DNA of 61,668 nucleotides, the filler included. It is 5 parts of 5 records of this genome, joined end to end, with 100 filler letters (N's around TTAATTAATTAA, not from the genome) between each part and the next. Parts side by side here need not be neighbours in the genome. Positions count along the whole stretch, not along the records: positions 52,853 to 61,668 come from DRR723986_9816; 4 more parts are not named here. The stretch is one strand, 5' to 3'. The stretch's first letter is position 1, and each line of letters begins with the position of its first letter. A model generated the notes under the pieces. That model had not been told where the DNA came from and searched no databases. It saw only the letters and a list, made by a program, of their open reading frames with translations. Position numbers and translations under genes: made by a program. Positions 4,127 through 60,557 of this stretch are shown piece by piece.

Positions 4127-7100
4127 CCTCTGCATTCGCCGGCCAGTGCTGGCGATCATGATGACCGCTGCGCTCATGATGCTGGGCGTGGTCTCCATGG
4201 GTCGAATAAGCATCGATCTGTTCCCGAGCGTTGAAGTGCCCATTGTAACGGTTGAAACAATACTCGAAGGAGCCTCTCCCAGCACGGTAGAGACAGAAGT
4301 TACCGAGAGGCTTGAAGAAGAGCTAATCGCTATATCTGGCGTCGATACAATGCGCTCGATTAGCGGTGACGGTTTTTCACAGATAATCCTTGAATTCGAT
4401 ATGGAGGAAAATCCCAACCTGAAGGCCCAGGAGATACGGGACAAAATCAGTCAAACTCTGCCGCTTCTGCCTGACACAGTTAGTCAGCCTGTCGTCTCCA
4501 TACTTGATCCGGATTCTGAACCCATTGTCTCGGTGATTGTATCCGGCCCCTGGCCAGTGGGTGAACTCACAGCCTTCGCCAAAGATGTCGTCAAAGAGCG
4601 TTTGCAGAGAGTACCTGGCGTTGGCAGCGTGATTCTTGTCGGGGGCCGCGAGCGGGAAGTACGCATCTGGTTGAAAGCCCCACAAATGCGGGGTTACGGC
4701 GTAATTGCGGCCGATGTAATCAGCGCTATCCAACGTGAGCATGCTGACATCCCTGGCGGCCGCCTGGATTACCACAGCGGGTCCACGGAACTGACCATCA
4801 AAACCATGGGCGAAGTAACCAGCTTAAAAGAGTTGGGTGAAATCATTATTTCTCGCGATGATAAGGCGATGGTGCGCTTGATAGATGTTGCCGAAGTTGA
4901 GGATGGTCTGGAGGATGAACGCAGCTACGCGGAGCTAGATGGTAGAACAGGAGTAAGCCTCGAAATTCGCAAACAATCTGGAACCAATACCACCAGTATT
5001 GCCAAAGCAGTTAAGGCAGCGCTGACCAAACTTCAGACAGAAACACCAGCTGAAATCAACATTGTCACGGTAAGGGACAGTTCGCGATTTATCGGGTCCG
5101 CAGTGCGAGACGTGTCAAACGATATTTTGCTAGGCATCCTCCTGGTTGTCATTGTCACACTTTGCTTTTTACTCAGCGTACGCGCCACGCTAATTGTTGC
5201 AACCGCTATTCCAACGGCAATCATCGCTACTTTTTTCGCTTTCTACCTACTCGATTTTTCTATCAATATGGTATCGCTGATTGCCATATCACTGTGTGTC
5301 GGCCTGCTCGTAGACGATGCCATAGTTGTGCTGGAATCTATACACCGCGAAGTTGAAGCTGGGCTCGACCTCAATGAAGCTGCTTCAACGGGCACGCGAA
5401 AAGTTGCCACTGCCGTCATCGCATCCACCCTTTGTGTGATGGCGGTGTTCTTGCCGATTTCCTTTACCACAGGTCTGGTTGGTGTGTTTTTCTATCAATA
5501 CGGTGTCACCATTGCTGTGGCAGTAGCACTATCTCTGTTTGTTTCCGTTACCCTTACGCCTATGTTGAGCTCTCGTCTGCTCAAAAAAAGTTCCGGCCAT
5601 AGAGGAATGTTTGCGCTACTGGATAAGGGCTATGTACTTCTGGAAACAACCTACGTTAAGGGCGTTCGCTTCGCACTTCGCGCTCGCTGGCTTGTTCTGC
5701 TGTTGGCCGCTGCCACTGTCGGTATGGGTGTTTATAATGCGGGTCAGGTTCCCCTCTCATTTACGTCCGCAACTGATAGAAGCGAGTTTCTCGCCAAAGT
5801 CGAGCTTCCTCTGGGAACCGGTCTTACCCAGGCCAAGCGTGTTGCCACTCAAGTGAGTAAAACTGTCAGTGACCTGGAACATATTGAATTGGTGTTCACT
5901 GTTATTGGCTCCGGCGCTCAGGCCAAGGCAAACGAACTATCATTCTATTTTGGTCTGTCGCCGAAACAACAAAGGAGCAGTCATCAGTATGAAGTGATGG
6001 ATGACGTCCGCACAGCGCTCGCTTTGGCCATACCCGATGCCAAGCACATCTCTTTGACAGATGTGCCCTGGATATCCGGAGGAGGATTCTTTGGTGCCGA
6101 CATGGAGATGGCTTTAAGCGGCGATGATTTAGAACAACTTCGAACATACGCGGATACTATCACGAGCCAGATGGAAGAATCTGGCCTCTTCAGGGATATC
6201 AAGTCCAGCTATGAGCCAGGCAAGCCTGAATTGCAGGTTACGATAAACCGGCGCAGGGCCGCTGATTTGGGCATTTCGGTTCGAGATATCGCCGCTACTG
6301 TTGGAGCCACGATGGGTGGTGTAGATGTTACAAGTTACGAAGAGTTCGGTAATCGCTATGACGTGCGCCTGAGATATGCAGAAACGTACCGCGACGAGAT
6401 CGGAAAGTTTGACCTCATTCAATTACGCGCGGCAGACAACAGCTTAATAGATTTCCGTAACGTCGCAGAGGTAAGCGTAACCAGTGGCCCGGCACAAATC
6501 GATCACTACAATCGGGCTCGAAAGATCGGTATTTCTGCAAACGCTCCCGCTGGGATCGCGACAGGCGAGCTGATGAAAAAAATGGATGAGATTATTAGTG
6601 ATCTCGATATGGCTACAGGATACGAGAGTTCATATCTAGGCACTTCAGAGCAAATCAATGATATTGTCGAGGCAATATTTTTTGCACTAACAATGTCGAT
6701 GCTCAGTCTATACATGATTCTGGCTAGTCAATTCAACAGCTATACTCAACCAGTAGTGATCATGCTTACCGCTCCGCTGTCTTTTGTGGGCGCATTCAGC
6801 TTGCTCGCATGGACTAACTCCGAGCTTTCAGTCTTGACACAAATCGGTCTGGTCGCGCTGATGGGTCTGGTTATGAAAAACGGCATTCTTCTGGTGGACT
6901 ATGCCAATCAGGCCATAGAGCAAGGCCACAGCGCAGCGGAAGCTATGATCGAAGCGGCTCATTTACGCTTACGCCCAGTACTGATGACTGCGTTCTCTAC
7001 CATATTCGGTATGATCCCTATAGCGCTGGCCACGTCTGATGGCGCTGAGTTACGCACTTCAATGGGTATACTCGTAATAGGCGGACTAATTTCCTCAACC

Positions 7101-9015: not shown

Positions 9016-9115
9016 NNNNNNNNNNNNNNNNNNNNNNNNNNNNNNNNNNNNNNNNNNNNTTAATTAATTAANNNNNNNNNNNNNNNNNNNNNNNNNNNNN
9101 NNNNNNNNNNNNNNN
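9016..9115. other. Artificial contig linker
   Basis: N44-TTAATTAATTAA-N44, giving stops in all six frames. Confidence 0.98.
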
Positions 9116-14708: not shown

Positions 14709-14808
14709 NNNNNNNNNNNNNNNNNNNNNNNNNNNNNNNNNNNNNNNNNNNNTTAATTAATTAANNNNNNNNNNNNNNNNNNNNNNNNNNNNNNNNNNNN
14801 NNNNNNNN
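14709..14808. other. Artificial contig linker
   Basis: N44-TTAATTAATTAA-N44. Confidence 0.98.
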
Positions 14809-19652: not shown

Positions 19653-20005
19653 TGTTCGTCCATGATGGGCCGGTGAAGGTCTTTGTGGCGACGCGGCCTG
19701 TGGATTTCCGCAAGGGCATCGATGGCCTGGCACTGGCGGTGCAGGAGATGTTCGGGATGGACCCGTTCTGCGGGGCGGCCTTTGTGTTCCGGGCGAAACG
19801 GGCGGACAGGATCAAGCTCTTGATCTGGGATCAGACCGGCATGGTGCTGGTTCACAAACGGCTGGAAGGCGGCAAGTTCGTCTGGCCACAGGTGCGCGAT
19901 GGGGTCATGCGCATATCCAGCGCGCAGTTCGCGGCCCTTTTTGAGGGCGTGGATTGGCGGCTGGTGCGGCCAGAGCGGGTGCGGCGTCCGCTGGTGGCGG
20001 GGTGA
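19649..20005 (+). CDS. tnpB: IS66 accessory protein TnpB
   Basis: PVDFRKGIDGL...FVFRAKRADRIKLLIWD..G.VL..KRLE.GKF.WP. Confidence 0.95.
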   Translation: MMFVHDGPVKVFVATRPVDFRKGIDGLALAVQEMFGMDPFCGAAFVFRAKRADRIKLLIWDQTGMVLVHKRLEGGKFVWPQVRDGVMRISSAQFAALFEGVDWRLVRPERVRRPLVAG

Positions 20006-20072
20006 CGGAAAACTGTGCCGAAAGGCCTGTTTTTACTGGCCTGATAGGGCATCCTGTGATTCACTTTCGCCC

Positions 20073-21638
20073 ATGCGAACCACTGACCTTGCGCGCGAAA
20101 ACGCCCGGCTGAAAGCCCGCCTTGCCGAGGTGGAGGCGACGCTGGCCGAAACGCAGGAGGCCAACCGGCGGCTGCAAGATATTCTGAGTGCGGCGCAGCG
20201 CGAGAAATTTGGCAAGCGCTCCGAAAAGCTCTCGCCCGACCAGTTCAACCTGTTCCTGGAAGATGCCGAGTTCGCCCAGGGCGTTCTGGAGGCCGCGCAG
20301 GAAAAGGCCGAAGCGGCGATGCAGCGGGCGCGCGGGGAAACACCGCGCAAGCCCAAACGCAACCGTGGCCATCTGCCACCGCATCTGCCGCGCGTCGAAC
20401 GCGTAATCGAGCCTGGCAGCACGCTCTGCCCCTGTGGCTGTGGCGAGATGGCCAAGATCGGGGAAGACGTCTCCGAACGGCTGGACGTGATCCCCGCGCA
20501 GTTCCGGGTGCTGGTCACGCGTCGCCCCAAATACGCCTGCCGCCGCTGCGCGCAGGCCGTGGTGCAAGCGCATGCGCCTGAACATGTGGTGCCTGGCGGG
20601 CTGCCCACGGAACTCTTCATCGCCTGGATTATCGTCTCGAAGTTCGGTGACCACCTGCCGTTTTATCGGCAGGCCGAGATCTTCAAGCGGCAAGGGATCG
20701 ATCTGGACCGCGGCACACTCGGCAACTGGGTCGGGCGCGCCTGTTTCCACCTGATGCCCGTCATCAACCATATGCGTGCCCATCTGCGTGGCGCAGATCG
20801 CATCTTCGTGGATGAAACCCGCGCGCCGGTGCTGGACCCGGGCCTGAAACGCACCAAGAGTGGCTACTTCTGGGCGGTTGTGTCCGATGATCGCGGTCAT
20901 GGCGGGGGTGGCCCACCCATCGTGCTGTTCCATTATGCCCCCGGTCGGGGCAAGGTGCATCCGCTGAACTTTCTGGCCGGATACCGTGGTCGGTTCCTGC
21001 AATGCGATGCCTACCAGTCCTACAACGCGATGACCGAGATCACGCGCGAGAACGGCCCATGGCAACTGGTCTATTGCTGGACGCATGTGCGCCGCCGCTT
21101 CGTCAAGCGCTTCGAGAGCGATGGCTCACCCATCGCTGAAGAAATGCTGCGCCAGATCGCGCTGCTTTATCAAATCGAGAAGTCCGTCCGCGGCAAAGAG
21201 GCGCCTGCGCGCCTCGCCGCCCGGCGTGAACATGCGGCTCCGATCATCGCGGCGCTGAAACCCTGGCTGGAAGCCCAGCTCTCGCGGATTCCACAGAAAT
21301 CCCGGCTCGCCGAAGACATCCGCTACACGCTGGCCCACTGGCCCGGCCTGATCCGCTTCCTTGATGACGGCACGCTGGAACTCGACACCAACCCGGTCGA
21401 GAACCAGATCCGCCCGATCGCCCTGACAAGAAAGAATGCACTATTTGCAGGGAATGAAGTCGGCGCCGAGAACTGGGCCATGCTGGCCTCGCTGGTCGCC
21501 ACCTGCAAGATGTCCGACGTGAACCCCGTCGACTATCTCGCCACCACCCTGCGCGCCATCCTCGACGGCCACCCGCAAAGCGGCATCGAAGACCTCATGC
21601 CGTGGCGCTTCAACCAGCCGTCAAGCCTCGCCGCATAG
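20073..21638 (+). CDS. tnpC: IS66 DDE transposase TnpC
   Basis: FGKRSEK, Zn finger CPCGC..CRRC, KFGDHLPFYRQ, VDET, CWTHVRRRF, DTNPVENQIRP. Confidence 0.96.
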   Translation: MRTTDLARENARLKARLAEVEATLAETQEANRRLQDILSAAQREKFGKRSEKLSPDQFNLFLEDAEFAQGVLEAAQEKAEAAMQRARGETPRKPKRNRGHLPPHLPRVERVIEPGSTLCPCGCGEMAKIGEDVSERLDVIPAQFRVLVTRRPKYACRRCAQAVVQAHAPEHVVPGGLPTELFIAWIIVSKFGDHLPFYRQAEIFKRQGIDLDRGTLGNWVGRACFHLMPVINHMRAHLRGADRIFVDETRAPVLDPGLKRTKSGYFWAVVSDDRGHGGGGPPIVLFHYAPGRGKVHPLNFLAGYRGRFLQCDAYQSYNAMTEITRENGPWQLVYCWTHVRRRFVKRFESDGSPIAEEMLRQIALLYQIEKSVRGKEAPARLAARREHAAPIIAALKPWLEAQLSRIPQKSRLAEDIRYTLAHWPGLIRFLDDGTLELDTNPVENQIRPIALTRKNALFAGNEVGAENWAMLASLVATCKMSDVNPVDYLATTLRAILDGHPQSGIEDLMPWRFNQPSSLAA

Positions 21639-28566: not shown

Positions 28567-28666
28567 NNNNNNNNNNNNNNNNNNNNNNNNNNNNNNNNNN
28601 NNNNNNNNNNTTAATTAATTAANNNNNNNNNNNNNNNNNNNNNNNNNNNNNNNNNNNNNNNNNNNN
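28567..28666. other. Artificial contig linker
   Basis: N44-TTAATTAATTAA-N44. Confidence 0.98.
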
Positions 28667-39717: not shown

Positions 39718-41238
39718 CTATCCAACCTGCAATTGGGATTCAACGTGGCGAATCGCATCCTTGATTGACATGCCCCACGCGACGGAGGCACCCGTGCCCT
39801 CGTTCAGCCAGGACTCGACGGTCTTCTCCGCAGATATGACCGTGCTGTGACGCCGCTTACCAAAATACTCGCCGATCTCTTTGTACGCTGCTGGCGTATA
39901 TTTTCGCGCCAGGAACATTGCCAGCATCCTTGGCTGGCTGACTGAACGCATCTTGCTGGACGACTTAAGGCTCTGTGGTTCCAGGCCGAATACGCTGCAA
40001 ACGACCCGATCAATATCGACGATACGAACAACGGGCTGCGTTGCCTGGACTAAGTCAAAGACCGCCTCCCAGGCTTTTTCCCAGCTCAACTCACCTTCGG
40101 CAACACTCGCCGCCGCGGTCAGCCGTTTCGCAATGCCGCACACGACTCGTCCGTCACCACAGCAACGGCTTGCTAGCTGCTGGATGACCTGATCGTCCAG
40201 CTTGACACCTTCGCGCTGCAGCTCGTTGCGAAGCACTGTCTCCCGCAGTTGCTCGTCCAGGGGTGCGATTGGTGCAACTAGCCCGCCTCGCAACCGCCCC
40301 ACGATGTCGCTTCCCAGTGCGTCCAGGTCATTGAGCGACCGGTCAGCGGTGCAAACAACTTGGCGTCCCGCTTTGATCAAGTTGTCGAGCGTGTGCTTGA
40401 CCTCGGCAAGGGTGGATTTCTTTCCGACGAAGAACTGGATATCGTCCAGCACTAGTGCCTGGACGTCACGATACTTTCGCCGAAACATTGGAAGGCCGCC
40501 ACCACGCAGCCCTTCCATAAAGTCATTGGTAAATTGTTCACTGGTCATGTGAACAACGCGGCGCATCCGCTGATCAACCCGCAACTTCCGGGCAATGCTC
40601 GCCGCAATCAGGCTCTTTCCACAACCACTCGGGCCGTGGAAGAAGGCGGGCGAGAGTCGGCCGGGATCGTTAACCGCCAGGGTCGCCGTCGTGTAAGCGA
40701 GTTCATTTGAACTGCCGCGCAATGGCTCAACGATACGGGCCGCGTGCCCGCTTGATTCGCCCGGCGTTGCCTTCAGCGGAACTTTGCGTGCACCAGTTGC
40801 AACTGCTCGAGATTCAGACCGCTCGCTGGCCGCTCCTGGAAAAACAACAATGTCCGGCGCGTGTGTGTCGACAGACTGTTCACGACCAGACGTCGCGCTA
40901 CCAGCAACGGAGGAACTAGGAGGTTCGGTATCACCTGCCCGATTGCTGCTGGTGGTTTGATCGCTGGCAGCATTATCGCTGGCGACGCGGTAGTCGACTT
41001 GTACGTGTTCACCGAGGACCGTTTGCGCGGTCGCCGAAATGTCCTTGCCAAGCATCTTCCGAGCGAGCTGGCAGGCAAAGTCCGTGGCCATTTCGATAAC
41101 CAATACTTGGCCATCGAAGCTCCACGTTGCATCTGAGGATATCCATAAGTCGTAGCGCTCTGAGCTGATCCTATTGACCAGAGCAGATCGCACCATCGCC
41201 GCGACATCCATTTCGCTCTGGTTCAGTCCGTATGCCAT
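39718..41238 (-). CDS. dnaA: Chromosomal replication initiator DnaA (divergent paralog)
   Basis: Domain I W, Walker A GPSGCGKS, FRRKYR..LVLDDIQF, domain IV PRMLAMFLAR...EIG.YFG.R.HSTV. Confidence 0.88.
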   Translation of the reverse strand: MAYGLNQSEMDVAAMVRSALVNRISSERYDLWISSDATWSFDGQVLVIEMATDFACQLARKMLGKDISATAQTVLGEHVQVDYRVASDNAASDQTTSSNRAGDTEPPSSSVAGSATSGREQSVDTHAPDIVVFPGAASERSESRAVATGARKVPLKATPGESSGHAARIVEPLRGSSNELAYTTATLAVNDPGRLSPAFFHGPSGCGKSLIAASIARKLRVDQRMRRVVHMTSEQFTNDFMEGLRGGGLPMFRRKYRDVQALVLDDIQFFVGKKSTLAEVKHTLDNLIKAGRQVVCTADRSLNDLDALGSDIVGRLRGGLVAPIAPLDEQLRETVLRNELQREGVKLDDQVIQQLASRCCGDGRVVCGIAKRLTAAASVAEGELSWEKAWEAVFDLVQATQPVVRIVDIDRVVCSVFGLEPQSLKSSSKMRSVSQPRMLAMFLARKYTPAAYKEIGEYFGKRRHSTVISAEKTVESWLNEGTGASVAWGMSIKDAIRHVESQLQVG

Positions 41239-52752: not shown

Positions 52753-52852
52753 NNNNNNNNNNNNNNNNNNNNNNNNNNNNNNNNNNNNNNNNNNNNTTAA
52801 TTAATTAANNNNNNNNNNNNNNNNNNNNNNNNNNNNNNNNNNNNNNNNNNNN
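52753..52852. other. Artificial contig linker
   Basis: N44-TTAATTAATTAA-N44. Confidence 0.98.
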
Positions 52853-52962: not shown

Positions 52963-53640
52963 ATGCAAGACCTCACAACTCAATTCTTTGATGCTCTGTG
53001 TCTGCACGAGACACCTGCGGTTTTTCTGCCCGGAACTCCTGAGACAATGCTGCGAACTACGGTCGATGCTTCCGGCTGGTACGACTGGCAGCCTATTCCA
53101 GGTACCTTGCAGTCGGAAGACTACAAATCTCTGGAACGCGAATTCGGCGCTGTCTTACCTGACAGTTTCATCGAATGGCACATGCGCTACTTCTTTGCCG
53201 ACGCGGATTGCTGGCTGGTCCGCCTGCCAAATTCCCTGCCACAAGATCCTTTGGCAGCCGTGCGCAGCAACTTAAACATCGGCTACTCAGAAGATCTGAT
53301 CGCTGCAGGACTTATTCCTTTTGCGGATGACGGCAATGACGCCGGTTCACTTGTGTTTGACACGAGGGGACAAAACGGCCGGGCGGATTTTCCGATTTTA
53401 GAATATGATCATGAGTACCCTGACGTCCTGGACGGACTCTCCGGTGTGATTTTTTCATCGTTTAACAAACTGCTCGAATGCATGACGCATTTTTTGAAGG
53501 AAACACGCACACGCAAGAGGTTTGACGTCATACCTGCTTTCTTTGACATCGATCCGGCAGGCGCCGGCGCTGAAGGCCGTTACTACTGGGAGAATTGGAT
53601 CGATATGGAACGCATGAACTATGAAGAGTCTGGAGACTGA
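52963..53640 (+). CDS. SMI1/KNR4 (SUKH) family immunity-type protein
   Basis: LE.EFG.VLPDSF..W, LIPFADDG.D...VFD, I..YDHE, FSSF..LLE. The ORF is open from 52858. Confidence 0.8.
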   Translation: MQDLTTQFFDALCLHETPAVFLPGTPETMLRTTVDASGWYDWQPIPGTLQSEDYKSLEREFGAVLPDSFIEWHMRYFFADADCWLVRLPNSLPQDPLAAVRSNLNIGYSEDLIAAGLIPFADDGNDAGSLVFDTRGQNGRADFPILEYDHEYPDVLDGLSGVIFSSFNKLLECMTHFLKETRTRKRFDVIPAFFDIDPAGAGAEGRYYWENWIDMERMNYEESGD

Positions 53641-53870
53641 TGCCAGATACAAGTAATTGCAACTGATGCATCGACGCCAAACAAAAATATCATAAAGCAA
53701 GCCCGAAGTATAAGGGCGCTGCAATGCATGTCTACTGAAGTGTCTTGAAGATTGATTCCGCTTGAATGCCTTGAGTCATTAGATGCTAATCGCAGAGTAT
53801 TAATCGCCGAATCTTAAGTCCAGCTTGTTTAACAATTGGAAGAATCAGGTTCCTAAGTACTATTCTCAGT

Positions 53871-54524
53871 CTACTCCTGAAGTTTAAACACACCGGAGTC
53901 TAAAACATAGGTCCCAGGTGCAGGCTCATTAACACTGCCATATTCAATCGTGGAGAATTCGGACATTCCACCATAACATTCCAAGGGACCAATAGTGATC
54001 TGGCCTGCAGAATACGTGACTTCGCGTTTGCAGCCTTGATCGTCGTGATCAGAGGCAAACCAGCCAAAGTGCTCAAAGGTGGCAATCGACAGCAGGCGCG
54101 TTTTTTTGACCGGATCCCAAATCTTAATGGACTCATGCTCGGAGCCACCTCGACTGCCGTTTTGGACTCCACTTAACCTGAAAATCATTTCAGGTGTGCC
54201 GTCTTCAGTAATGTCTACAAAGTCGATAGATTTGAGGTCGATGTGCTGCATGTCATTCAAATCATAGTCGTCATCATACCAGGTGAACCAATGGATTCCA
54301 GCTTTGTAACCCACCATTCCGCGCCAGAGGGCAAAACCCTCGGTCGTGCTTATGGCCAAGAGATCACCGCAAGGGTGAGTGTTAAACAAGTGAAACAGAC
54401 TTTCACTGCGTTTAACATCCCAGGATTCAACCTGGACTGTCGGTAAAACGGTGAGAGAATCCTGACTGAAGGCCGCTGCCGAACAAAGTACGCTTAAACA
54501 AATCAAAACTAGAGCCCGCGTCAT
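53871..54524 (-). CDS. Hypothetical secreted protein
   Basis: AGGAG RBS before ATG 54524, Sec signal MTRALVLICLSVLCSAAAFS, Dx[DN]xDG-like DITEDGTPE. Confidence 0.7.
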   Translation of the reverse strand: MTRALVLICLSVLCSAAAFSQDSLTVLPTVQVESWDVKRSESLFHLFNTHPCGDLLAISTTEGFALWRGMVGYKAGIHWFTWYDDDYDLNDMQHIDLKSIDFVDITEDGTPEMIFRLSGVQNGSRGGSEHESIKIWDPVKKTRLLSIATFEHFGWFASDHDDQGCKREVTYSAGQITIGPLECYGGMSEFSTIEYGSVNEPAPGTYVLDSGVFKLQE

Positions 54525-54977
54525 ATCTGCGCTCCTGGAAAAGAGACTGGAATATGTGAATCTTTCTCGGTTTCGGTTGCGGCAGACCTGAATCCCAAAG
54601 ACTGAAGGTTGACGGCAATATAGTCGTATTACCTCACATATCAATGCTTACATGCCTGGGCTGACTACAATTAGCTACTTTGAGTCGTGATTGTGGCAGT
54701 ATCGCTGTCTCACCCTCAAGCTACTATTTATGCGGTCTCAGGCGATAATTTGCACCAAATTCAGTGCCAAACAGGCGATAGGGGAAGCTTTAGAATGTGC
54801 AATCATTTGGATTGCCGGGGGCGGGCAGCGCAGCTACTTTGCGAAAGTGATTCGGGGCAAATCAAATGTTAATACAACTCCCGAACGCAACATGTTAAAA
54901 CAAAACATGCAATACACTTCCGGGCTGACGGAGCTGTATCGAAATTTATCCATTCTATTTATCTGAAGGTTTTCCAT

Positions 54978-55580
54978 ATGAGTCCATCTCAAGACTGCTG
55001 CTGGATTGCTGTGGCAACAACAGCCTGTACGATGCCCGCTACTGGGCCTGCGAGCGGAGCACAAAATGTTTCAGGACAGACCAGAACAAATCAAACAGCT
55101 GGTACTGCTTCGGCTGCCGGCTGCCCAGTGATTATGTTAACAACGGCCTGTAGTTTTAGTGCGCAGGAAGTCGCTACGTCGCAGGCCAATGCCTCGGCGG
55201 CCGGCTGCCCGGTGATTGCTTTGACAACCGCCTGCAGTTTTAGTGCGCAGGAGATAGCCGCGAAACAGGCGGATGCCAATGCTGCCGGCTGTCCAGTGAT
55301 CATGTTAACAACCGCCTGTAGTTTCAGTGCGCAAGACGTCGCGCAGAAACAAGCCGATGCCGCAACATCAGGCTGTCCGGTGATTGCTTTGACGACCGCC
55401 TGTAGTTTCAGTGCGCAGGAGATTGCCAAGTCTCAGGCCGATGCCGCGACATCGGGCTGTCCGGTAATTGCTTTGACAACCGCCTGCAGCTTCAGTGCTC
55501 AAGAGATAGCCGCGAAACAGGCGGATGCAAGTGCTGCCGGCTGTCCGGTAATTATGTTAACAACTGCCTGCTCCTTCTAG
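54978..55580 (+). CDS. Multi-core RiPP (lanthipeptide-like) precursor: 6x GCPVI(M/A)LTTACSF plus one variant core
   Basis: 28-aa (84-nt) period, cores starting at 55119, 55203, 55287, 55371, 55455 and 55539. Core DNA differs mainly at synonymous positions. GAAGG RBS; directly upstream of kinase, lyase and cyclase genes. Confidence 0.9.
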   Translation: MSPSQDCCWIAVATTACTMPATGPASGAQNVSGQTRTNQTAGTASAAGCPVIMLTTACSFSAQEVATSQANASAAGCPVIALTTACSFSAQEIAAKQADANAAGCPVIMLTTACSFSAQDVAQKQADAATSGCPVIALTTACSFSAQEIAKSQADAATSGCPVIALTTACSFSAQEIAAKQADASAAGCPVIMLTTACSF

Positions 55581-55650
55581 TGGCGCCGCCGCATGGCAGT
55601 CCTGTAGGCTAATGACGTCAATTATGGACTGTTAAGACCCGAGCATTCAG

Positions 55651-55700
55651 GGAGGAGGAGAGCTTCTCCATACTTTTCTGTGCTTCTCCTTCTCCTTTTT
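55651..55700 (+). terminator. Hairpin plus U-tract between precursor and enzyme genes (terminator/attenuator)
   Basis: GGAGGAGGAGAGC (55651-55663) pairs with GCTTCTCCTTCTCC (55682-55695), followed by TTTTT. Confidence 0.55.
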
Positions 55701-55725
55701 CATCATTTACCTGCCCGGACAAATC

Positions 55726-56850
55726 ATGTACACTGTTGATAACATCCACTCCTTGCTCCTGGAGCAAAAACTGATTTCCATGCGCTCGTTTGTCAATGGT
55801 GATTATGAAGCAACGAGTGTCAACCGCCGCAACCAGAACCTGCGCATCACGACGCTCGCCGAAGGTAATTACCTGGTTAAACAAGTGCAGGATAAAGAGG
55901 CCGTGAATGCAGTTACTGTGCGGCGCGAGATTGATTTCTACCGCACACTCAAAACAACTGTGCCGGAATTGGCCGCTTTGTGTCCGCAGCATATCTATTC
56001 TGACAGAGATAGAATCATTCTGATGATTGAGCTGTTTGAAAAAGCGATGCCCCTCTGGAAATACTACAGAATTAAGACAATAGAGCATATGCCGCTGGCG
56101 ACGGTTGAAGCCATAGCAGTACTTCTGGCGACGGTGCACCGGAGGCTCGCAGAGCCCAAAGTCCTTGGACATCCCAACTTTGAGTTTCTGTCGCAAGACC
56201 TGCCCTTTGCGTTTGGCATGACACAACCAGATCCCGCGATATTAACATTTATCAGGCAGGGAAGCCTGCAATTCCTGCAAAATCTGCAGGCAAACGCGGA
56301 TATCCTCGAAATTCTGGCTGCCGTTCGTGAGCTGTGGCAATTGAATGCGGTGATTCACGGTGATATTAAACTCGACAACTTTTTGGTCCTTGGCGAAGAT
56401 AAGTCAATTCGCAATGCGAGCTCAGATGTTAGACTTATCGACTGGGAGATGCTGCAGTTTGGTGATTTTGCCTGGGATGTTGCCGGGGTGTTTCAGGATA
56501 AAATATTCTGGTGGGCACAATCAATGCCGCAGCGTGATACACCTGAAGAAATGGCGCAGGCCGCCCAGTTTCCGATAAATCGCCTGGCGCCGTCCATGCA
56601 GAAGTTTTGGGAGATTTACTGCCGCACTTCTGAGTTCTCGGCTGAGTATGAGCGGCAACTGCTCCACAAGGTTGTGCGTTATGCCGGCCTGCGCACGCTG
56701 CAGACCGCCTACGAAGTCTGTTCCAGATTTGATGAAATTCCGCCCGTAGGCGCAATTCTGCTCGGTATCGGCAAAAGTATTCTGCGCAAACCCGAAGAAG
56801 CTGCAATTCACCTGTTTGGATTTAAGCCGGAGGTGTTAGATGTTAACTGA
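55726..56850 (+). CDS. APH-family phosphotransferase, LanK-like Ser/Thr kinase of a split dehydratase
   Basis: RRNQNL.I....YLVKQ N-lobe, catalytic HGDIKLDN, LIDWE, GD.AWD.AG. Confidence 0.88.
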   Translation: MYTVDNIHSLLLEQKLISMRSFVNGDYEATSVNRRNQNLRITTLAEGNYLVKQVQDKEAVNAVTVRREIDFYRTLKTTVPELAALCPQHIYSDRDRIILMIELFEKAMPLWKYYRIKTIEHMPLATVEAIAVLLATVHRRLAEPKVLGHPNFEFLSQDLPFAFGMTQPDPAILTFIRQGSLQFLQNLQANADILEILAAVRELWQLNAVIHGDIKLDNFLVLGEDKSIRNASSDVRLIDWEMLQFGDFAWDVAGVFQDKIFWWAQSMPQRDTPEEMAQAAQFPINRLAPSMQKFWEIYCRTSEFSAEYERQLLHKVVRYAGLRTLQTAYEVCSRFDEIPPVGAILLGIGKSILRKPEEAAIHLFGFKPEVLDVN

Positions 56851-57913
56851 AAAAGTACACAGCGACATCCTGAAAGTAATTGATGCGGTCGAGTTTATCT
56901 CAGAAAGTGAGTATGCGCTGAACGGTTTGCGCCGCGACATCAGCAATATGCACATCATTGACCCGAGCGGGCATGTGAATGTTAGTCCCGTTGTTAAACA
57001 GCCTGCGCACTACGCCGAGAATTTTTGCAGAGTGCTGACGGCCGACATCTATCAGCAACTGTACAGCCCCGCCGAGGACGCCAATTCACAGATCCCCGAC
57101 ACCGAAATTATTGGCTTCCGCGCTAAACTCTCGCATGCCAATCAAGGCAGCGGTACCTGGGAGGCGGGCTGGAAGATCATTGGCGTAGAAGCAGCCGCAG
57201 GCGAGCCGGACGGGAAGATCATCGTCTCAAATGGCATACTGCAATTCTGGGCGAATGCCGTTGATGTTAGCACAGGCGGCAATACATTTGTTGCCGGGGC
57301 TGAATGTCAGGTTCGAGTCGGCAAAGAAGTCCAGAGTCTAAATCCACACTTCTTTATGGTCTATGGCAATCTTAACAAAGATGAAGTTGACGGTTTTGCC
57401 GGCAAAATGCTGCGGTTCTACTGGAACCTGACTGCGGCGGGCGCAATCAAGTATATTGAACTTGTCACAGACATGTTTAATCATGCCGGAATCCTTTTTA
57501 AGACAAAAGTACTTTCGGATTCGCAGGCTTATAAACGTACAGATGGCGGCGTGCTGTACACCGACAGCAGTCAGCTGCGCCAGGCCGTGCCCTTGTTAAT
57601 GCGTATCCATGCTGAGTTGCAGCCGTTCCTGGGAGCAAATGTACCGCTGTTCACCCGTAAAATGGCGCATGGCCTGGCTTTTGCCGAAGATCCGGCGACC
57701 GGCGAGAGTTTTGGAATATCGCGCGCAAGTATCATTGCACGTGGCATGCATGCCTCTTTTAGCAATGGCCGTACGCGTCCGCAAGAAATGCTGCAATCAG
57801 TACATAAACACCTCGCCAGGGCCGGCATTGAACCGCAACATCCATACTCGTATAAAACTAACCGTGCCATGTACGAGCGCATCCTGAACAATTCTGCAAC
57901 TGTTAACCATTGA
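56840..57913 (+). CDS. HopA1-like protein, LanY-like phospho-Ser/Thr lyase
   Basis: RFYWNL, FKTKVL, Y.RTDGGVLY, PLFTRK...GLAFAEDP..GESFG..R, recognised as HopA1-family motifs; overlaps the kinase by 11 nt. Confidence 0.82.
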   Translation: MLTEKVHSDILKVIDAVEFISESEYALNGLRRDISNMHIIDPSGHVNVSPVVKQPAHYAENFCRVLTADIYQQLYSPAEDANSQIPDTEIIGFRAKLSHANQGSGTWEAGWKIIGVEAAAGEPDGKIIVSNGILQFWANAVDVSTGGNTFVAGAECQVRVGKEVQSLNPHFFMVYGNLNKDEVDGFAGKMLRFYWNLTAAGAIKYIELVTDMFNHAGILFKTKVLSDSQAYKRTDGGVLYTDSSQLRQAVPLLMRIHAELQPFLGANVPLFTRKMAHGLAFAEDPATGESFGISRASIIARGMHASFSNGRTRPQEMLQSVHKHLARAGIEPQHPYSYKTNRAMYERILNNSATVNH

Positions 57914-59247
57914 ACGGCAGCAATACCATGACAGATACACTTATCAGACCCGAACGTATGACTGAGAATCAAGACTTTCTGAGCGCCGCCTGCAACATTG
58001 GTGATCATCTGCTGGAAACAGCACTTTGGGATGCCGAACATGAGACCTGTAATTGGTTGGCACGGCGCGATATTGAGGATGCTGAAGTCGCACCCTACGC
58101 CGATCAAACTGCGGCGCTGAGCCCCGAAATATACAGTGGTTCGGGTGGTCTTGCATTATTCCTGGCGGAGTTATTCGGTCTAACACAAAATCCAGATTAC
58201 CGCGCGTCGGCTGTGGCGGCCTGGTTGCGATCTGTGCGTTACATGCGGACGAATGAATTCCCGGATTCGCCGCTTTCATTCTATGCCGGTAAGTTGGGTC
58301 TGCTCTATGTTGGCTACCGTATTTTGGATATGGGCCAGAATGCAGACATTAATATCGCGGCGGAACTGGACTGGTTAAGCGCTGAGCTGGAAGATGCTCT
58401 GCAAAAAGAACATTCGCTGGATGTGATTGGCGGAAATGCCGGCGCAATTCCAGCTCTGCTGTATCTGGCTGAAAAACACGACCTGGAGTTTTGTGGGCAG
58501 CTTGCCGTGGACTGCGCACAGGAAATTGTCAACAAGGCAGACTGGCAGGGGGACATGTGTTTGTGGACCTCCGAAAAGATCCACGGCATCGAGTTAAATT
58601 TGCCGCCGCTGACTGGATATTCACATGGTGCGGCGGGATTAGGGGTGGCGCTGCTTGAAGTTTATGCGGCCACGCAGAACCCAAGCTTTCTGCAACATGC
58701 GCGTGGAGCTTTTGCATTTGAAGCGGCCTATTTTAACGATGCAGAGGGCAACTGGATTGACACGCGCCATCCGCACAAGATTGAGAATGAAAAAAATATT
58801 ACGGGTACCTGCCGCAATGCCTGGTGTCACGGCGCTCCCGGAATTGCCCTGGCGCATATGCGCGCCGCCTCGCTCGATACGGAGCGCCAGGACTTTCACC
58901 GGCGAATGGCCAAAACTGCGATTGAAACCACAAAACGCGACATTGCTGTCAAGCTCAAAACTCCACGCAAAGATGCTACGCTCTGCCATGGGATTTTGGG
59001 CTCCGTTGAGATCGTGTTAACATATGGAAAATACCTGCAGGATGAGGCGGCGATTGAATTTGCGCGTTCGGTCACTTCGGCATATCTCGCAAAATTTAAC
59101 TCACCGCTGGAGATGGCCTCCGGTCTAAATACGGGTAGCTACAGCCCTTCACTGATGATTGGCCTTGCGGGAATTGGTATGCATTGTTTGCGACTGATTG
59201 ACGACTCCGTCCGCTCGGTGTTGATTACTTTGCCGGATCACGTTTAG
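57910..59247 (+). CDS. lanC: Stand-alone lanthionine synthetase C-like cyclase with intact Zn ligands
   Basis: YSGSGG.ALFL, DVIGGNAG, GYSHGAAG (catalytic His), AWCHGAPG and LCHG (Cys/Cys/His Zn triad), LMIGLAGIG. Start is TTG 57910 or ATG 57928. Confidence 0.92.
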   Translation: MNGSNTMTDTLIRPERMTENQDFLSAACNIGDHLLETALWDAEHETCNWLARRDIEDAEVAPYADQTAALSPEIYSGSGGLALFLAELFGLTQNPDYRASAVAAWLRSVRYMRTNEFPDSPLSFYAGKLGLLYVGYRILDMGQNADINIAAELDWLSAELEDALQKEHSLDVIGGNAGAIPALLYLAEKHDLEFCGQLAVDCAQEIVNKADWQGDMCLWTSEKIHGIELNLPPLTGYSHGAAGLGVALLEVYAATQNPSFLQHARGAFAFEAAYFNDAEGNWIDTRHPHKIENEKNITGTCRNAWCHGAPGIALAHMRAASLDTERQDFHRRMAKTAIETTKRDIAVKLKTPRKDATLCHGILGSVEIVLTYGKYLQDEAAIEFARSVTSAYLAKFNSPLEMASGLNTGSYSPSLMIGLAGIGMHCLRLIDDSVRSVLITLPDHV

Positions 59248-59516: not shown

Positions 59517-60557
59517 ATGTGTACACGTGTATTTAACAACCATGAAAAGACATTGCTGACAACAGGCAGAAACATGGACTGGCCCGAACAAATGGATACC
59601 AGTCTGTACTATTTTTATAGCGGACTTAACAAAACCGGTTTGCCGGCCGGAGATACTTCGGGCACTACACCCTTAAAGTGGACATCCAAATACGCTAGTG
59701 TTGTAGCCATGATTTCCAGTGCCGGTGCGGCCGATGGTTTAAACAGTGAGGGGCTGGCAGCCAACGTCCTCTATTTGGCCTGTAGCACCTACGCCGATGC
59801 CGCACAGCGCAAAGGCAAAACCGGTTTGAGTGTGCTGCGTTGGTTGCAGTACGTTGTTGACAGTTTTGCAAATGTTAATGAAGTAGTCGAGGAATTTAAG
59901 GACAACACTGAACTGGTATTGGTCGGCGCCAAAGTTCCGGGAGACTCCGGCGGTGCGGAAGCCCAGCTCCACCTTTCGATTTCCGACCGGCATGGTGATT
60001 CCGCAATCATTGAAATATTTGACGGCAAATATGTTGTGCACAGCGCCCCCAGATATCGCGTGATGACGAATGACCCGCGCTTCGGTAAACAACTTGAGAT
60101 TGACGAATATTGGCGCTGGCAATATGAAATGAAAGACAATGAAAACCCCACGTTCACGCTGCCCGGAACCGTGTATTCTGCCGATCGATTTGCCAGAGCC
60201 AGGTACTACGTGGAAAACATGGTTAAAGTTGAGGATGAACACAGTGCGGTTGCGCAAATGTTCTCTATCGTTCGCAACGCGGCCGTACCACTTGGTTACG
60301 AGGTTCCCAACCGATGCACGGGCCAACCGCAGGCTATCGCGCAAACGCTGTGGTCAACAGTTTCGGTGCATGATAATAGGACTTACTATTTCGGCGATTC
60401 TTCGACTCCCAACATTTTTTGGGTCGAGCTGCTTAAGCCCTTTTCCACGTCGGCCACAAGCTTGCAACTCGAAACCAAAGTTGATGGGCACTACGTTTTT
60501 TATGCAGGTTGTGTTAACAAGGCTTTTTCCGCAAGTACGGATCCATTTGCGGCATAA
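59517..60557 (+). CDS. Ntn-hydrolase, choloylglycine hydrolase / penicillin V acylase (linear amide C-N hydrolase) family
   Basis: N-terminal nucleophile M-C-T-R, GRNMDW, DGLNSEGL, MTNDP, S.DRF.RA; no signal peptide. Confidence 0.92.
   Translation: MCTRVFNNHEKTLLTTGRNMDWPEQMDTSLYYFYSGLNKTGLPAGDTSGTTPLKWTSKYASVVAMISSAGAADGLNSEGLAANVLYLACSTYADAAQRKGKTGLSVLRWLQYVVDSFANVNEVVEEFKDNTELVLVGAKVPGDSGGAEAQLHLSISDRHGDSAIIEIFDGKYVVHSAPRYRVMTNDPRFGKQLEIDEYWRWQYEMKDNENPTFTLPGTVYSADRFARARYYVENMVKVEDEHSAVAQMFSIVRNAAVPLGYEVPNRCTGQPQAIAQTLWSTVSVHDNRTYYFGDSSTPNIFWVELLKPFSTSATSLQLETKVDGHYVFYAGCVNKAFSASTDPFAA

What the first reader, a model, noticed from the sequence alone, without database searches (positions are those of the whole stretch)
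54978..55118. No N-terminal leader: a seventh, divergent core starts at residue 7
Seen: CCWIAVATTACTM (residues 7-19) aligns without gaps to GCPVIMLTTACSF, sharing C-x5-TTAC-[ST]-hydrophobic. Only MSPSQD precedes it, and an in-frame stop at 54870 with no intervening ATG/GTG/TTG rules out a longer leader. Known: lanthipeptide enzymes normally need an N-terminal leader. Inference: recognition is either core-encoded or provided by the internal helical spacers, and the first core gives a distinct Trp- and extra-Cys-containing congener.
Basis: partly seen in the sequence, partly recalled or inferred. Interest (0 to 1): 0.75.

Follow-up and report, generated by a model that had tools for sequence, protein, structure and literature searches.

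The report
Leaderless multi-core lanthipeptide precursor
The gene encodes a peptide precursor that carries seven ring-forming modules of two kinds and lacks the guiding leader segment that related precursors have, so its enzymes probably recognise it in an unusual way.

Summary
ORF 54978-55580 (200 aa) starts six residues before a Cys/Thr module. An in-frame TAA lies at 54870, with no ATG/GTG/TTG between.

The module is not merely a decayed copy of the six GCPVI-type cores. It belongs to a second, conserved "CCW" core type that is repeated 2-4 times in ten other precursors. It matches those cores at 7-12 of 14 positions, against 5 of 14 for its own cores.

The cluster is precursor, APH kinase, HopA1 lyase, LanC. 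The literature calls this enzyme set class Vb.

92 related loci were fetched. 38 of 51 candidate precursors carry a leader motif, [FY][LI]xGx[LIV], ahead of the first core. The window's precursor and that of its closest relative L013 do not. L013 also starts its first CCW core at residue 9, behind an in-frame stop. The two enzyme sets are sisters in the tree.

So the leaderless state is real and conserved. How the enzymes recognise the substrate (core, spacer, or trans factor) remains inferred. The complex prediction failed technically.

This is a new variant of a known kind.

The parts
54870..54872 (+). In-frame TAA that bounds the ORF upstream
   Evidence: 35 codons to the ATG, none ATG/GTG/TTG.
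54965..54969 (+). Shine-Dalgarno-like GAAGG, 8 nt before the ATG
   Evidence: Read. A consensus resemblance only.
54978..55580 (+). Multi-core precursor gene (LanA-like), 200 aa plus stop
   Evidence: Tandem repeat of period 84 nt over 55113-55571. It lies directly upstream of the kinase, as in 12 of 12 genome loci and in L013.
54978..54995 (+). Six-residue polar N-cap (residues 1-6); no leader
54996..55034 (+). Module 1: CCW-type core (residues 7-19), with 3 Cys and 3 Thr
   Evidence: 7-12 of 14 identical to 34 CCW cores elsewhere.
55035..55118 (+). 28-residue G/A/S/T/Q-rich linker (residues 20-47)
   Evidence: pLDDT about 30 and mostly coil (helix 37-45) in a low-confidence model. No leader motif.
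55119..55577 (+). Six GCPVI-type cores separated by five 15-residue Ala/Gln/Glu/Lys spacers. Core coordinates: 55119-55157, 55203-55241, 55287-55325, 55371-55409, 55455-55493, 55539-55577.
   Evidence: The spacers are modelled as helices at low confidence.
55650..55697 (+). Hairpin followed by a U-run, between the precursor and the kinase gene. Possible attenuator.
   Evidence: terminator-like sites at 55650/55651; 13-15 bp stem, z -1.75, 9 of 200 shuffles fold as well.
55726..56850 (+). LanK: APH-family kinase, 374 aa
   Evidence: Pfam PF01636, E 3.9e-11. 51% identical to L013's.
56840..57913 (+). LanY: HopA1-family phospho-Ser/Thr lyase, 357 aa
   Evidence: Pfam PF17914, E 7.9e-39. 41% identical to L013's.
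57910..59247 (+). LanC cyclase, 445 aa, with the SHG / WCHG / LCHG motifs
   Evidence: Pfam PF05147, E 1.6e-52. Aligned to the LicM2 cyclase domain 6st5 with these motifs matched.
59517..60557 (+). Choloylglycine-hydrolase (Ntn) family protein with Cys at residue 2. Membership of the cluster is doubtful.
   Evidence: Pfam PF02275, E 8.5e-43. No match in any of the 92 related loci.

Best explanation
What it is. ORF 54978-55580 is the substrate of a three-enzyme lanthionine synthetase: APH kinase LanK, HopA1 lyase LanY and zinc cyclase LanC. This enzyme set is called class Vb. The polypeptide is a string of seven modules of two kinds: one CCW-type module at residues 7-19, and six GCPVI-type modules. 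Each module has the pattern C-x5-T-T-x-C-[ST].

Inferred chemistry, from the known activities of these families. LanK phosphorylates Thr/Ser. LanY eliminates phosphate to give Dhb/Dha. LanC adds the Cys thiols. The result would be two (GCPVI) or up to three (CCW) thioether rings per module.

Shown by comparison. This precursor truly lacks the N-terminal leader, short or about 110 aa long, that ends in [FY][LI]xGx[LIV] and marks most precursors of this enzyme family. The leaderless state is shared with the sister cluster L013, so it is an old and maintained condition.

Inferred recognition. The enzymes must engage the substrate without that leader. The most likely route is the hydrophobic CCW module at the N-terminus, perhaps helped by the G/P-poor helical spacers. 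Whether single modules are later cut out is unknown, because no protease or exporter is conserved with the cluster.
For: Enzyme set. Pfam hits for the kinase, lyase and cyclase. The cyclase's SHG, WCHG and LCHG motifs match those of a solved cyclase domain.

Same gene order elsewhere. The order precursor, K, Y, C is seen in 12 of 12 genome loci. K, Y and C are matched in that order in 67 of 92 loci overall.

Multi-core precursors are the rule in this family.

Leader motif.
- The loose pattern is found in 38 of 51 automatically picked candidate precursors, as 28 distinct 16-aa versions.
- Of the 13 without it, three are cut by contig ends (L026, L067, L068) and nine are doubtful small ORFs.
- One is L013.
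- The motif is absent in the window's precursor and in window 53601-55000 in six frames.
- No copy of the roughly 110-aa leader domain was found in the window or in L013.

L013. K is 51%, Y 41% and C 57% identical to the window's. Its ATG is at 4349 and an in-frame TGA at 4322. Its first CCW core starts at residue 9.

Tree. Window and L013 are sisters (SH-aLRT 100). The next branch, L014/L015, has the long leader domain (quick tree only).

CCW module. 7-12 of 14 identical to 34 cores in 10 proteins. All Cys and Thr positions are invariant. Four other precursors start with it within 9 residues.
Against: No experiment or expression data bears on this. No sequencing run was listed and no whole genome is held, so a leader or docking protein encoded elsewhere cannot be excluded.

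For P0023, P0024 and P0028 I saw only called protein sequences. Their upstream DNA, and therefore their starts, could not be checked.

Six CCW-type precursors do carry the leader motif (P0006, P0025, P0026, P0027, P0029, P0030). The CCW core therefore does not by itself make a leader unnecessary.

The window's single CCW module sits exactly where a leader would sit, followed by a 28-residue linker. This fits a docking-only role as well as a substrate role.

The candidate-precursor count rests on a crude filter: at least 4 Cys, with the ORF ending within 700 nt of K. It also includes near-duplicate loci.

The tree is the quick search. The careful one did not finish.
Confidence: 0.68

Rival explanations
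1. Residues 1-47 are a leader in function. The CCW element has been co-opted as a docking site for LanK/LanY, is not itself turned into a product, and is discarded. Only the six GCPVI modules are cores.
For: - It is the only CCW module in this precursor and it is N-terminal.
- A 28-residue low-complexity linker separates it from the first GCPVI core, twice the length of the other spacers.
- All five leaderless precursors begin with a CCW module.
- In class Va, the leader binds the kinase through hydrophobic contacts (PMC9486802, abstract and passages). The W-I-x-V-A patch could do the same.
Against: - Every modifiable residue (C7, C8, T14, T15, C17) is kept.
- In relatives the same element is repeated up to four times, including at the very C-terminus, where it cannot serve as a leader.
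- Docking and being a substrate do not exclude one another.
Confidence: 0.17
2. A leader or docking factor is supplied in trans from a gene outside the window, so the precursor only looks leaderless.
For: - Leader peptides can work in trans for nisin. This is from Khusainov and Kuipers 2012, as described in a passage of PMC12328550; the original was not seen.
- No whole genome is held for the window.
Against: - Neither the motif nor the leader domain was found in the 61.7-kb window or in the 12.4-kb L013 locus.
- In the 38 loci with the motif, it is always part of the precursor itself.
Confidence: 0.08
3. Translation starts at Met19 (ATG 55032). The CCW stretch would then be an untranslated relic, and residues 19-47 a short leader of ordinary length.
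For: A 29-residue N-terminus would match the 24-27 residues found before the first core in the Sphingomonas and Bradyrhizobium precursors.
Against: - Residues 19-47 lack the leader motif.
- The upstream frame is open and keeps all invariant CCW positions.
- GAAGG lies 8 nt before the ATG at 54978, while no purine-rich stretch is seen before 55032.
- The N-cap resembles that of L013, where no internal Met exists.
Confidence: 0.04
4. The resemblance of residues 7-19 to a core is chance.
For: 30 of 5000 shuffles of the same 47 residues reach the score against the window's own cores.
Against: - 1 of 5000 random 47-mers of enzyme composition reaches the score.
- P0006 matched at E 2.1e-5 in a search of 1.84 billion proteins.
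- Identity to one CCW core elsewhere is 12 of 14.
Confidence: 0.02

Closest known systems
Class Vb lanthipeptide pathway (SmoA with SmoK, SmoY, SmoC; Pei et al. 2022, J Am Chem Soc). I know it only through passages of PMC11186320 and PMC12328550; the paper itself is not held.
   Same: Separate APH-type kinase, HopA1-type lyase and LanC cyclase acting on a Cys/Ser/Thr-rich peptide.
   Different: According to PMC11186320, mSmoA is the sole described member. By recall, not from a call, it is a single-core peptide with an N-terminal leader from Streptomyces. Here there are seven modules of two kinds and no leader, and the relatives are found in Bacteroidota-like and proteobacterial genomes.
Class Va lanthipeptides (cacaoidin, lexapeptide); PMC9486802, abstract and passages
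   Same: LanK and LanY form the dehydratase. The leader is recognised by the kinase through hydrophobic contacts.
   Different: Class Va clusters have no LanC, use LanX/LanD and make AviMeCys. Their precursors have one core and a leader of about 30 residues with a conserved Tyr.
Class IV LanL synthetases
   Same: The same three activities: lyase, kinase and zinc-dependent LanC (described in PMC9486802 passages).
   Different: In LanL the three are fused in one polypeptide with a protein-kinase-type domain. Here there are three genes with an APH-type kinase.
Multi-core RiPP precursors, such as multi-core microviridins (PMC5934393; search listing and start of abstract only)
   Same: Several core peptides within one precursor polypeptide are processed by one enzyme set.
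   Different: Different chemistry (ester/amide rings made by ATP-grasp ligases). According to the start of that abstract, a leader guides modification in the usual scheme.
The wider LanK/LanY/LanC multi-core family defined here (Sphingomonas, Allosphingosinicella, Bradyrhizobium and 80 metagenome loci)
   Same: Same gene order, and multi-core precursors with mixed core types of the form C-x4-5-T-x2-C-[ST].
   Different: Those precursors carry [FY][LI]xGx[LIV] before the first core, either as a short leader or at the end of a domain of about 110 aa. The window and L013 do not.

Membership tests
Class V(b) lanthipeptide gene cluster | Stand-alone APH-family kinase (LanK, PF01636) | tested here: met
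   E 3.9e-11, 43.6 bits against a cut-off of 23.2.
Class V(b) lanthipeptide gene cluster | Stand-alone HopA1-family lyase (LanY, PF17914) | tested here: met
   E 7.9e-39.
Class V(b) lanthipeptide gene cluster | Dedicated LanC cyclase with zinc ligands | tested here: met
   PF05147, E 1.6e-52; the SHG, WCHG and LCHG motifs align with those of the LicM2 cyclase domain. That these are the metal ligands is from general knowledge of LanC.
Class V(b) lanthipeptide gene cluster | Adjacent precursor with Cys and Ser/Thr in its core | tested here: met
   15 Cys in 200 aa, lying 146 nt upstream of LanK.
Class V(b) lanthipeptide gene cluster | N-terminal leader peptide on the precursor | tested here: not met
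   six residues before the first module, and no family leader motif.
Class V(b) lanthipeptide gene cluster | Lanthionine or methyllanthionine rings in the product | not testable with these tools
   Needs mass spectrometry of the modified peptide.
LanK/Y/C multi-core precursor family (defined here) | [FY][LI]xGx[LIV] motif before the first core | tested here: not met
   no match even with loosened patterns. 38 of 51 candidates elsewhere have it.
LanK/Y/C multi-core precursor family (defined here) | Several tandem modules of the form C-x4-5-T-x2-C-[ST], directly upstream of K-Y-C | tested here: met
CCW-type core | D-C-C-W-I-x-x-A-T-T-x-C-[ST] | tested here: met
   7-12 of 14 identical to 34 cores. 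C, C, W, I, A, T, T, C are invariant in 10 rows.

The most novel reading that the evidence does not exclude
In the window/L013 clade the leader has been lost and its docking role taken over by the substrate itself. The N-terminal CCW module would serve both as first core and as the handle by which LanK/LanY/LanC seize the chain. The G/P-poor helical spacers would pass the enzymes along the chain. Because no protease or exporter travels with the cluster, the end product may be an uncut protein carrying a dozen or more thioether rings, rather than a set of small peptides.
Probability: 0.3. Interest if true: 0.85.

Novelty: new variant of a known kind. Interest (0 to 1): 0.72.

Why it matters
Leader-guided recognition is the organising rule of lanthipeptide and most RiPP biosynthesis. 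A natural kinase/lyase/cyclase set that works on a leaderless chain of many modules would show how recognition can move into the core or the spacers.

Such a system would offer enzymes for modifying peptides without a leader tag.

The comparison also brings to light a large family, not found in the papers I could search. It consists of multi-core precursors beside LanK/LanY/LanC in soil and water bacteria, with a simple conserved leader motif that can be used for mining.

Tried and rejected
Complex prediction. Complex prediction with LanK, LanY and precursor residues 1-75 gave no verdict. The job failed twice with alignments A3 and A2 and once with plain proteins.

Sequencing runs. None was listed for window 54300-57300, so nothing can be said on expression or the transcript's 5' end.

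Searches that gave nothing useful.
- Whole genome: not held.
- Word-indexed search with the window's precursor: no hit at E <= 0.01 among 8000 candidates of 110-350 aa.
- Genome-contig scan with the kinase alone: 36 pattern matches, none confirmed.
- The genome search in the order of G001 with the window's LanC: 2 of 401 genomes at E <= 1e-30, both distant at 31-33% identity. The named relatives seen (Aureispira, Lacinutrix, Rhizobium) could therefore not be inspected for their precursors.

Position-weight scoring of the leader motif. I stopped it and used plain pattern matching instead.

Ideas rejected.
- A relic leader in residues 24-47. The alignment of 'AQN' with the Sphingomonas leader was noticed by eye, but the hydrophobic motif positions are not kept and the spacers are Q/A/G-rich anyway. 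I do not claim it.
- The choloylglycine-type hydrolase as the cluster's protease. It is absent from all 92 related loci.

Single-sequence AF2 model of the precursor. Mean pLDDT is 48.5, too low to rely on.

Literature. Searches, and a term search inside PMC7268733, found no description of multi-core or leaderless class V precursors. One search was badly worded and returned only soil-microbiome papers. Pei et al. 2022 is not held, and supplements were not consulted, so prior mention there cannot be excluded.

Full report
**What is at the coordinates.**
The finding covers residues 1-47 of a 200-aa ORF, 54978-55580 on the + strand. After six residues comes a 13-residue stretch (residues 7-19) with three Cys and three Thr. 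A 28-residue G/A/S/T/Q-rich linker follows. Then come six nearly identical 13-residue cores separated by 15-residue Ala/Gln/Glu/Lys spacers. Tandem Repeats Finder reports the array as period 84 nt, 55113-55571. The in-frame TAA is at 54870, and none of the 35 codons between it and the ATG is ATG, GTG or TTG. A GAAGG lies 8 nt before the ATG.

**Is the resemblance more than chance?**
The best ungapped BLOSUM62 score of the N-terminal 47 residues against the window's own cores is 28. It is reached by 30 of 5000 shuffles of the same residues. It is reached by 1 of 5000 random 47-mers of enzyme-like composition. At the DNA level only 20-23 of 39 bases agree, so it is not a recent copy.

The stronger evidence comes from outside the window. 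A HMMER search of 1.84 billion representatives gave 10 hits at E <= 0.001. Most are low-complexity repeats. Two are real relatives:
- P0002, a Sphingomonas-type multi-core protein.
- P0006, whose C-terminal half is four copies of the very element at the window's residues 6-19.

A word-indexed search with the precursor of locus L013 found nine more proteins built from this element. Over 34 such 'CCW' cores in 10 proteins, the window's residues 6-19 are identical at 7-12 of 14 positions (median 9). Against its own six cores the figure is 5 of 14. C7, C8, W9, I10, A13, T14, T15 and C17 are invariant in a 10-row alignment. The element is therefore a member of a second, conserved core type, not merely a decayed copy of the GCPVI core.

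**The surroundings.**
Downstream on the same strand lie these genes:
- an APH-family kinase (55726-56850),
- a HopA1-family lyase (56840-57913),
- a LanC cyclase (57910-59247),
- after a 270-nt gap, a choloylglycine-hydrolase family protein (59517-60557).

The cyclase keeps the SHG, WCHG and LCHG motifs, aligned to the cyclase domain of LicM2. A hairpin with a U-run lies between the precursor and the kinase gene. It could keep the precursor transcript in excess, but its z-score of -1.75 is modest.

In the literature, a kinase plus lyase plus dedicated LanC is called class Vb. mSmoA is named there as the sole member (PMC11186320 passages; PMC12328550 passage). The original paper is not held.

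**Relatives.**
A genome scan with P0002 returned 12 loci: ten Sphingomonas, one Allosphingosinicella and one Bradyrhizobium. All have the order precursor, K, Y, C.

A metagenome scan with a lyase alignment returned 80 loci. K, Y and C are matched in that order in 67 of the 92 loci. Most of the other 25 are short contigs that end in or beside the cluster. I did not check each; L065 has 3.3 kb upstream of Y without a kinase match. The hydrolase matched in 0 of 92 loci.

Precursors upstream of the kinase are typically long chains of many Cys/Thr modules of mixed types, with up to 86 Cys.

**The family's leader.**
An automatic pick of candidate precursors used these criteria: + strand, ending within 700 nt of K, and at least 4 Cys. 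It gave candidates in 51 of 92 loci. The remaining loci break down as follows:
- 15 had no kinase match.
- 14 had the kinase at the contig edge.
- 12 gave no candidate.

38 of the 51 candidates carry [FYW][LIVMF]xGx[LIVM] ahead of the first core, in 28 distinct 16-residue versions when P0006 is included. The motif stands either within the first 10-30 residues or at the end of a conserved N-terminal domain of about 110 aa. That domain has no Pfam match for the two members tested.

The 13 candidates without the motif are:
- three ORFs cut by contig ends (L026, L067, L068),
- nine doubtful small ORFs,
- L013.

Near-duplicate loci inflate these counts (for example L081 with L007, L082 with L012, L088 with L011, L015 with L014).

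**The window and L013 are the exception.**
L013 is by far the closest cluster: K 51%, Y 41% and C 57% identical, with the next best at 34, 32 and 40%. Its 116-aa precursor has three CCW cores and a different last core. The first CCW core starts at residue 9. The ATG is at 4349, with an in-frame TGA at 4322 and no alternative start between.

Neither precursor matches the leader motif, even in loosened forms. Nor does any frame of window 53601-55000. No copy of the leader domain was found in the window or in L013 by tblastn or by a profile search. The best E-values were about 1 and 4.9.

In a quick maximum-likelihood tree of K plus C (47 rows; the careful search did not finish), window and L013 are sisters with SH-aLRT 100. 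The next branch, L014/L015, has the long leader domain.

Among the CCW-type proteins:
- P0022 (identical to L013's), P0023, P0024 and P0028 start their first core at residue 8-9.
- P0025, P0026, P0027, P0029, P0030 and P0006 carry the motif.

For P0023, P0024 and P0028 only the called proteins were seen, not their DNA.

L013's enzymes are all intact, full-length ORFs. A system that has kept intact enzymes at 41-57% identity while both precursors lack a leader is most simply one that works without it.

**How it most likely works.**
Shown:
- the gene set,
- the module structure,
- the absence of the family's leader,
- its conservation in the sister cluster.

Inferred from the known activities of the families: LanK phosphorylates Thr/Ser, LanY eliminates phosphate, and LanC closes two or three thioether rings per module.

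Inferred and untested: recognition without a leader. Two observations bear on it.
- All five leaderless precursors begin with a CCW module. The window keeps exactly one, at the N-terminus, although its other six modules are of another type. This suggests that the N-terminal CCW module matters for engagement.
- Spacers of the five leaderless precursors (270 residues) hold 6% Gly+Pro and 24% charged residues. Those of the six leader-bearing CCW precursors (285 residues) hold 22% and 18%. A low-confidence model (mean pLDDT 48.5) draws the window's spacers as helices.

These groups contain close pairs, so the contrast is suggestive only.

No protease or exporter is shared between the window and L013. 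Whether modules are released is therefore open.

**Rivals.**
- Residues 1-47 may act as a leader built from a co-opted core. This fits its position and the long linker. However, all modifiable residues are kept, and the same element stands at C-termini elsewhere.
- A leader may be supplied in trans from outside the window. This cannot be excluded without the genome.
- Initiation at Met19 would give a leader of ordinary length. It would lack the motif and a ribosome-binding site, and it would leave the intact CCW frame unexplained.
- Chance is very unlikely on the counts above.

**Comparison and novelty.**
By enzyme content this is a class Vb-type cluster. By precursor it departs in two ways: it has many modules of two kinds, and it has no leader.

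My searches of the held library found no description of either feature for class V, nor did a term search in PMC7268733. The key 2022 paper and all supplements were not seen. I rate it a new variant of a known kind.

Noticed in passing
L020, L024, L025, L032, L033, L062, L064, L075, L014/L015 precursors; P0006 residues 1-155: A conserved N-terminal domain of about 110 aa precedes the cores in many LanK/Y/C precursors and ends in the [FY][LI]xGx[LIV] motif. The two members scanned (L014's precursor and P0006) have no Pfam match. It looks like an undescribed large leader domain.
   Followed up: partly
L039, L054, L058-L060, L070, L071, L073, L078, L079: Very large precursors of 335-606 aa with 45-86 Cys, in short repeated units containing C-G-G-x-H-T-C-G. 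They lie behind a short N-terminus with the motif F-[IMV]-x-G-P-L-T-Q.
   Followed up: no
window 59517-60557 (+): A choloylglycine-hydrolase (Ntn) family protein with Cys at residue 2 lies 270 nt after LanC on the same strand. It is absent from all 92 related loci, so it is probably not part of the pathway.
   Followed up: partly
window 55650-55697 (+): A GA-rich/CU-rich hairpin of 13-15 bp followed by a U-run, between the precursor and the kinase gene. L013 has an inverted repeat in the same place (L013 about 4750-4800, read by eye).
   Followed up: partly
window 9016-9115, 14709-14808, 28567-28666, 52753-52852: Four places each hold two runs of 44 N separated by 12 bases. These are masked or withheld stretches of identical layout, and the last lies 2 kb upstream of the cluster.
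   Followed up: no
window 19899-21638 (+) and 39718-41238 (-): An IS66-family transposase and a DnaA homologue. The window may lie near the chromosomal origin.
   Followed up: no
P0109, P0122, P0127: Relatives of the window's LanC that are fused to a HopA1 lyase domain (PF17914 plus PF05147, 567-699 aa). These are partly fused forms of the split synthetase.
   Followed up: no
L013 1048-3639 (-): A TPR histidine kinase and a LytTR response regulator lie divergently upstream of the L013 precursor and may regulate it. Nothing comparable lies next to the window's cluster.
   Followed up: no
P0030: This CCW-type protein loses the core pattern in its second module and continues into a hydrophobic tail. 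It may be a frameshifted or chimeric gene call.
   Followed up: no
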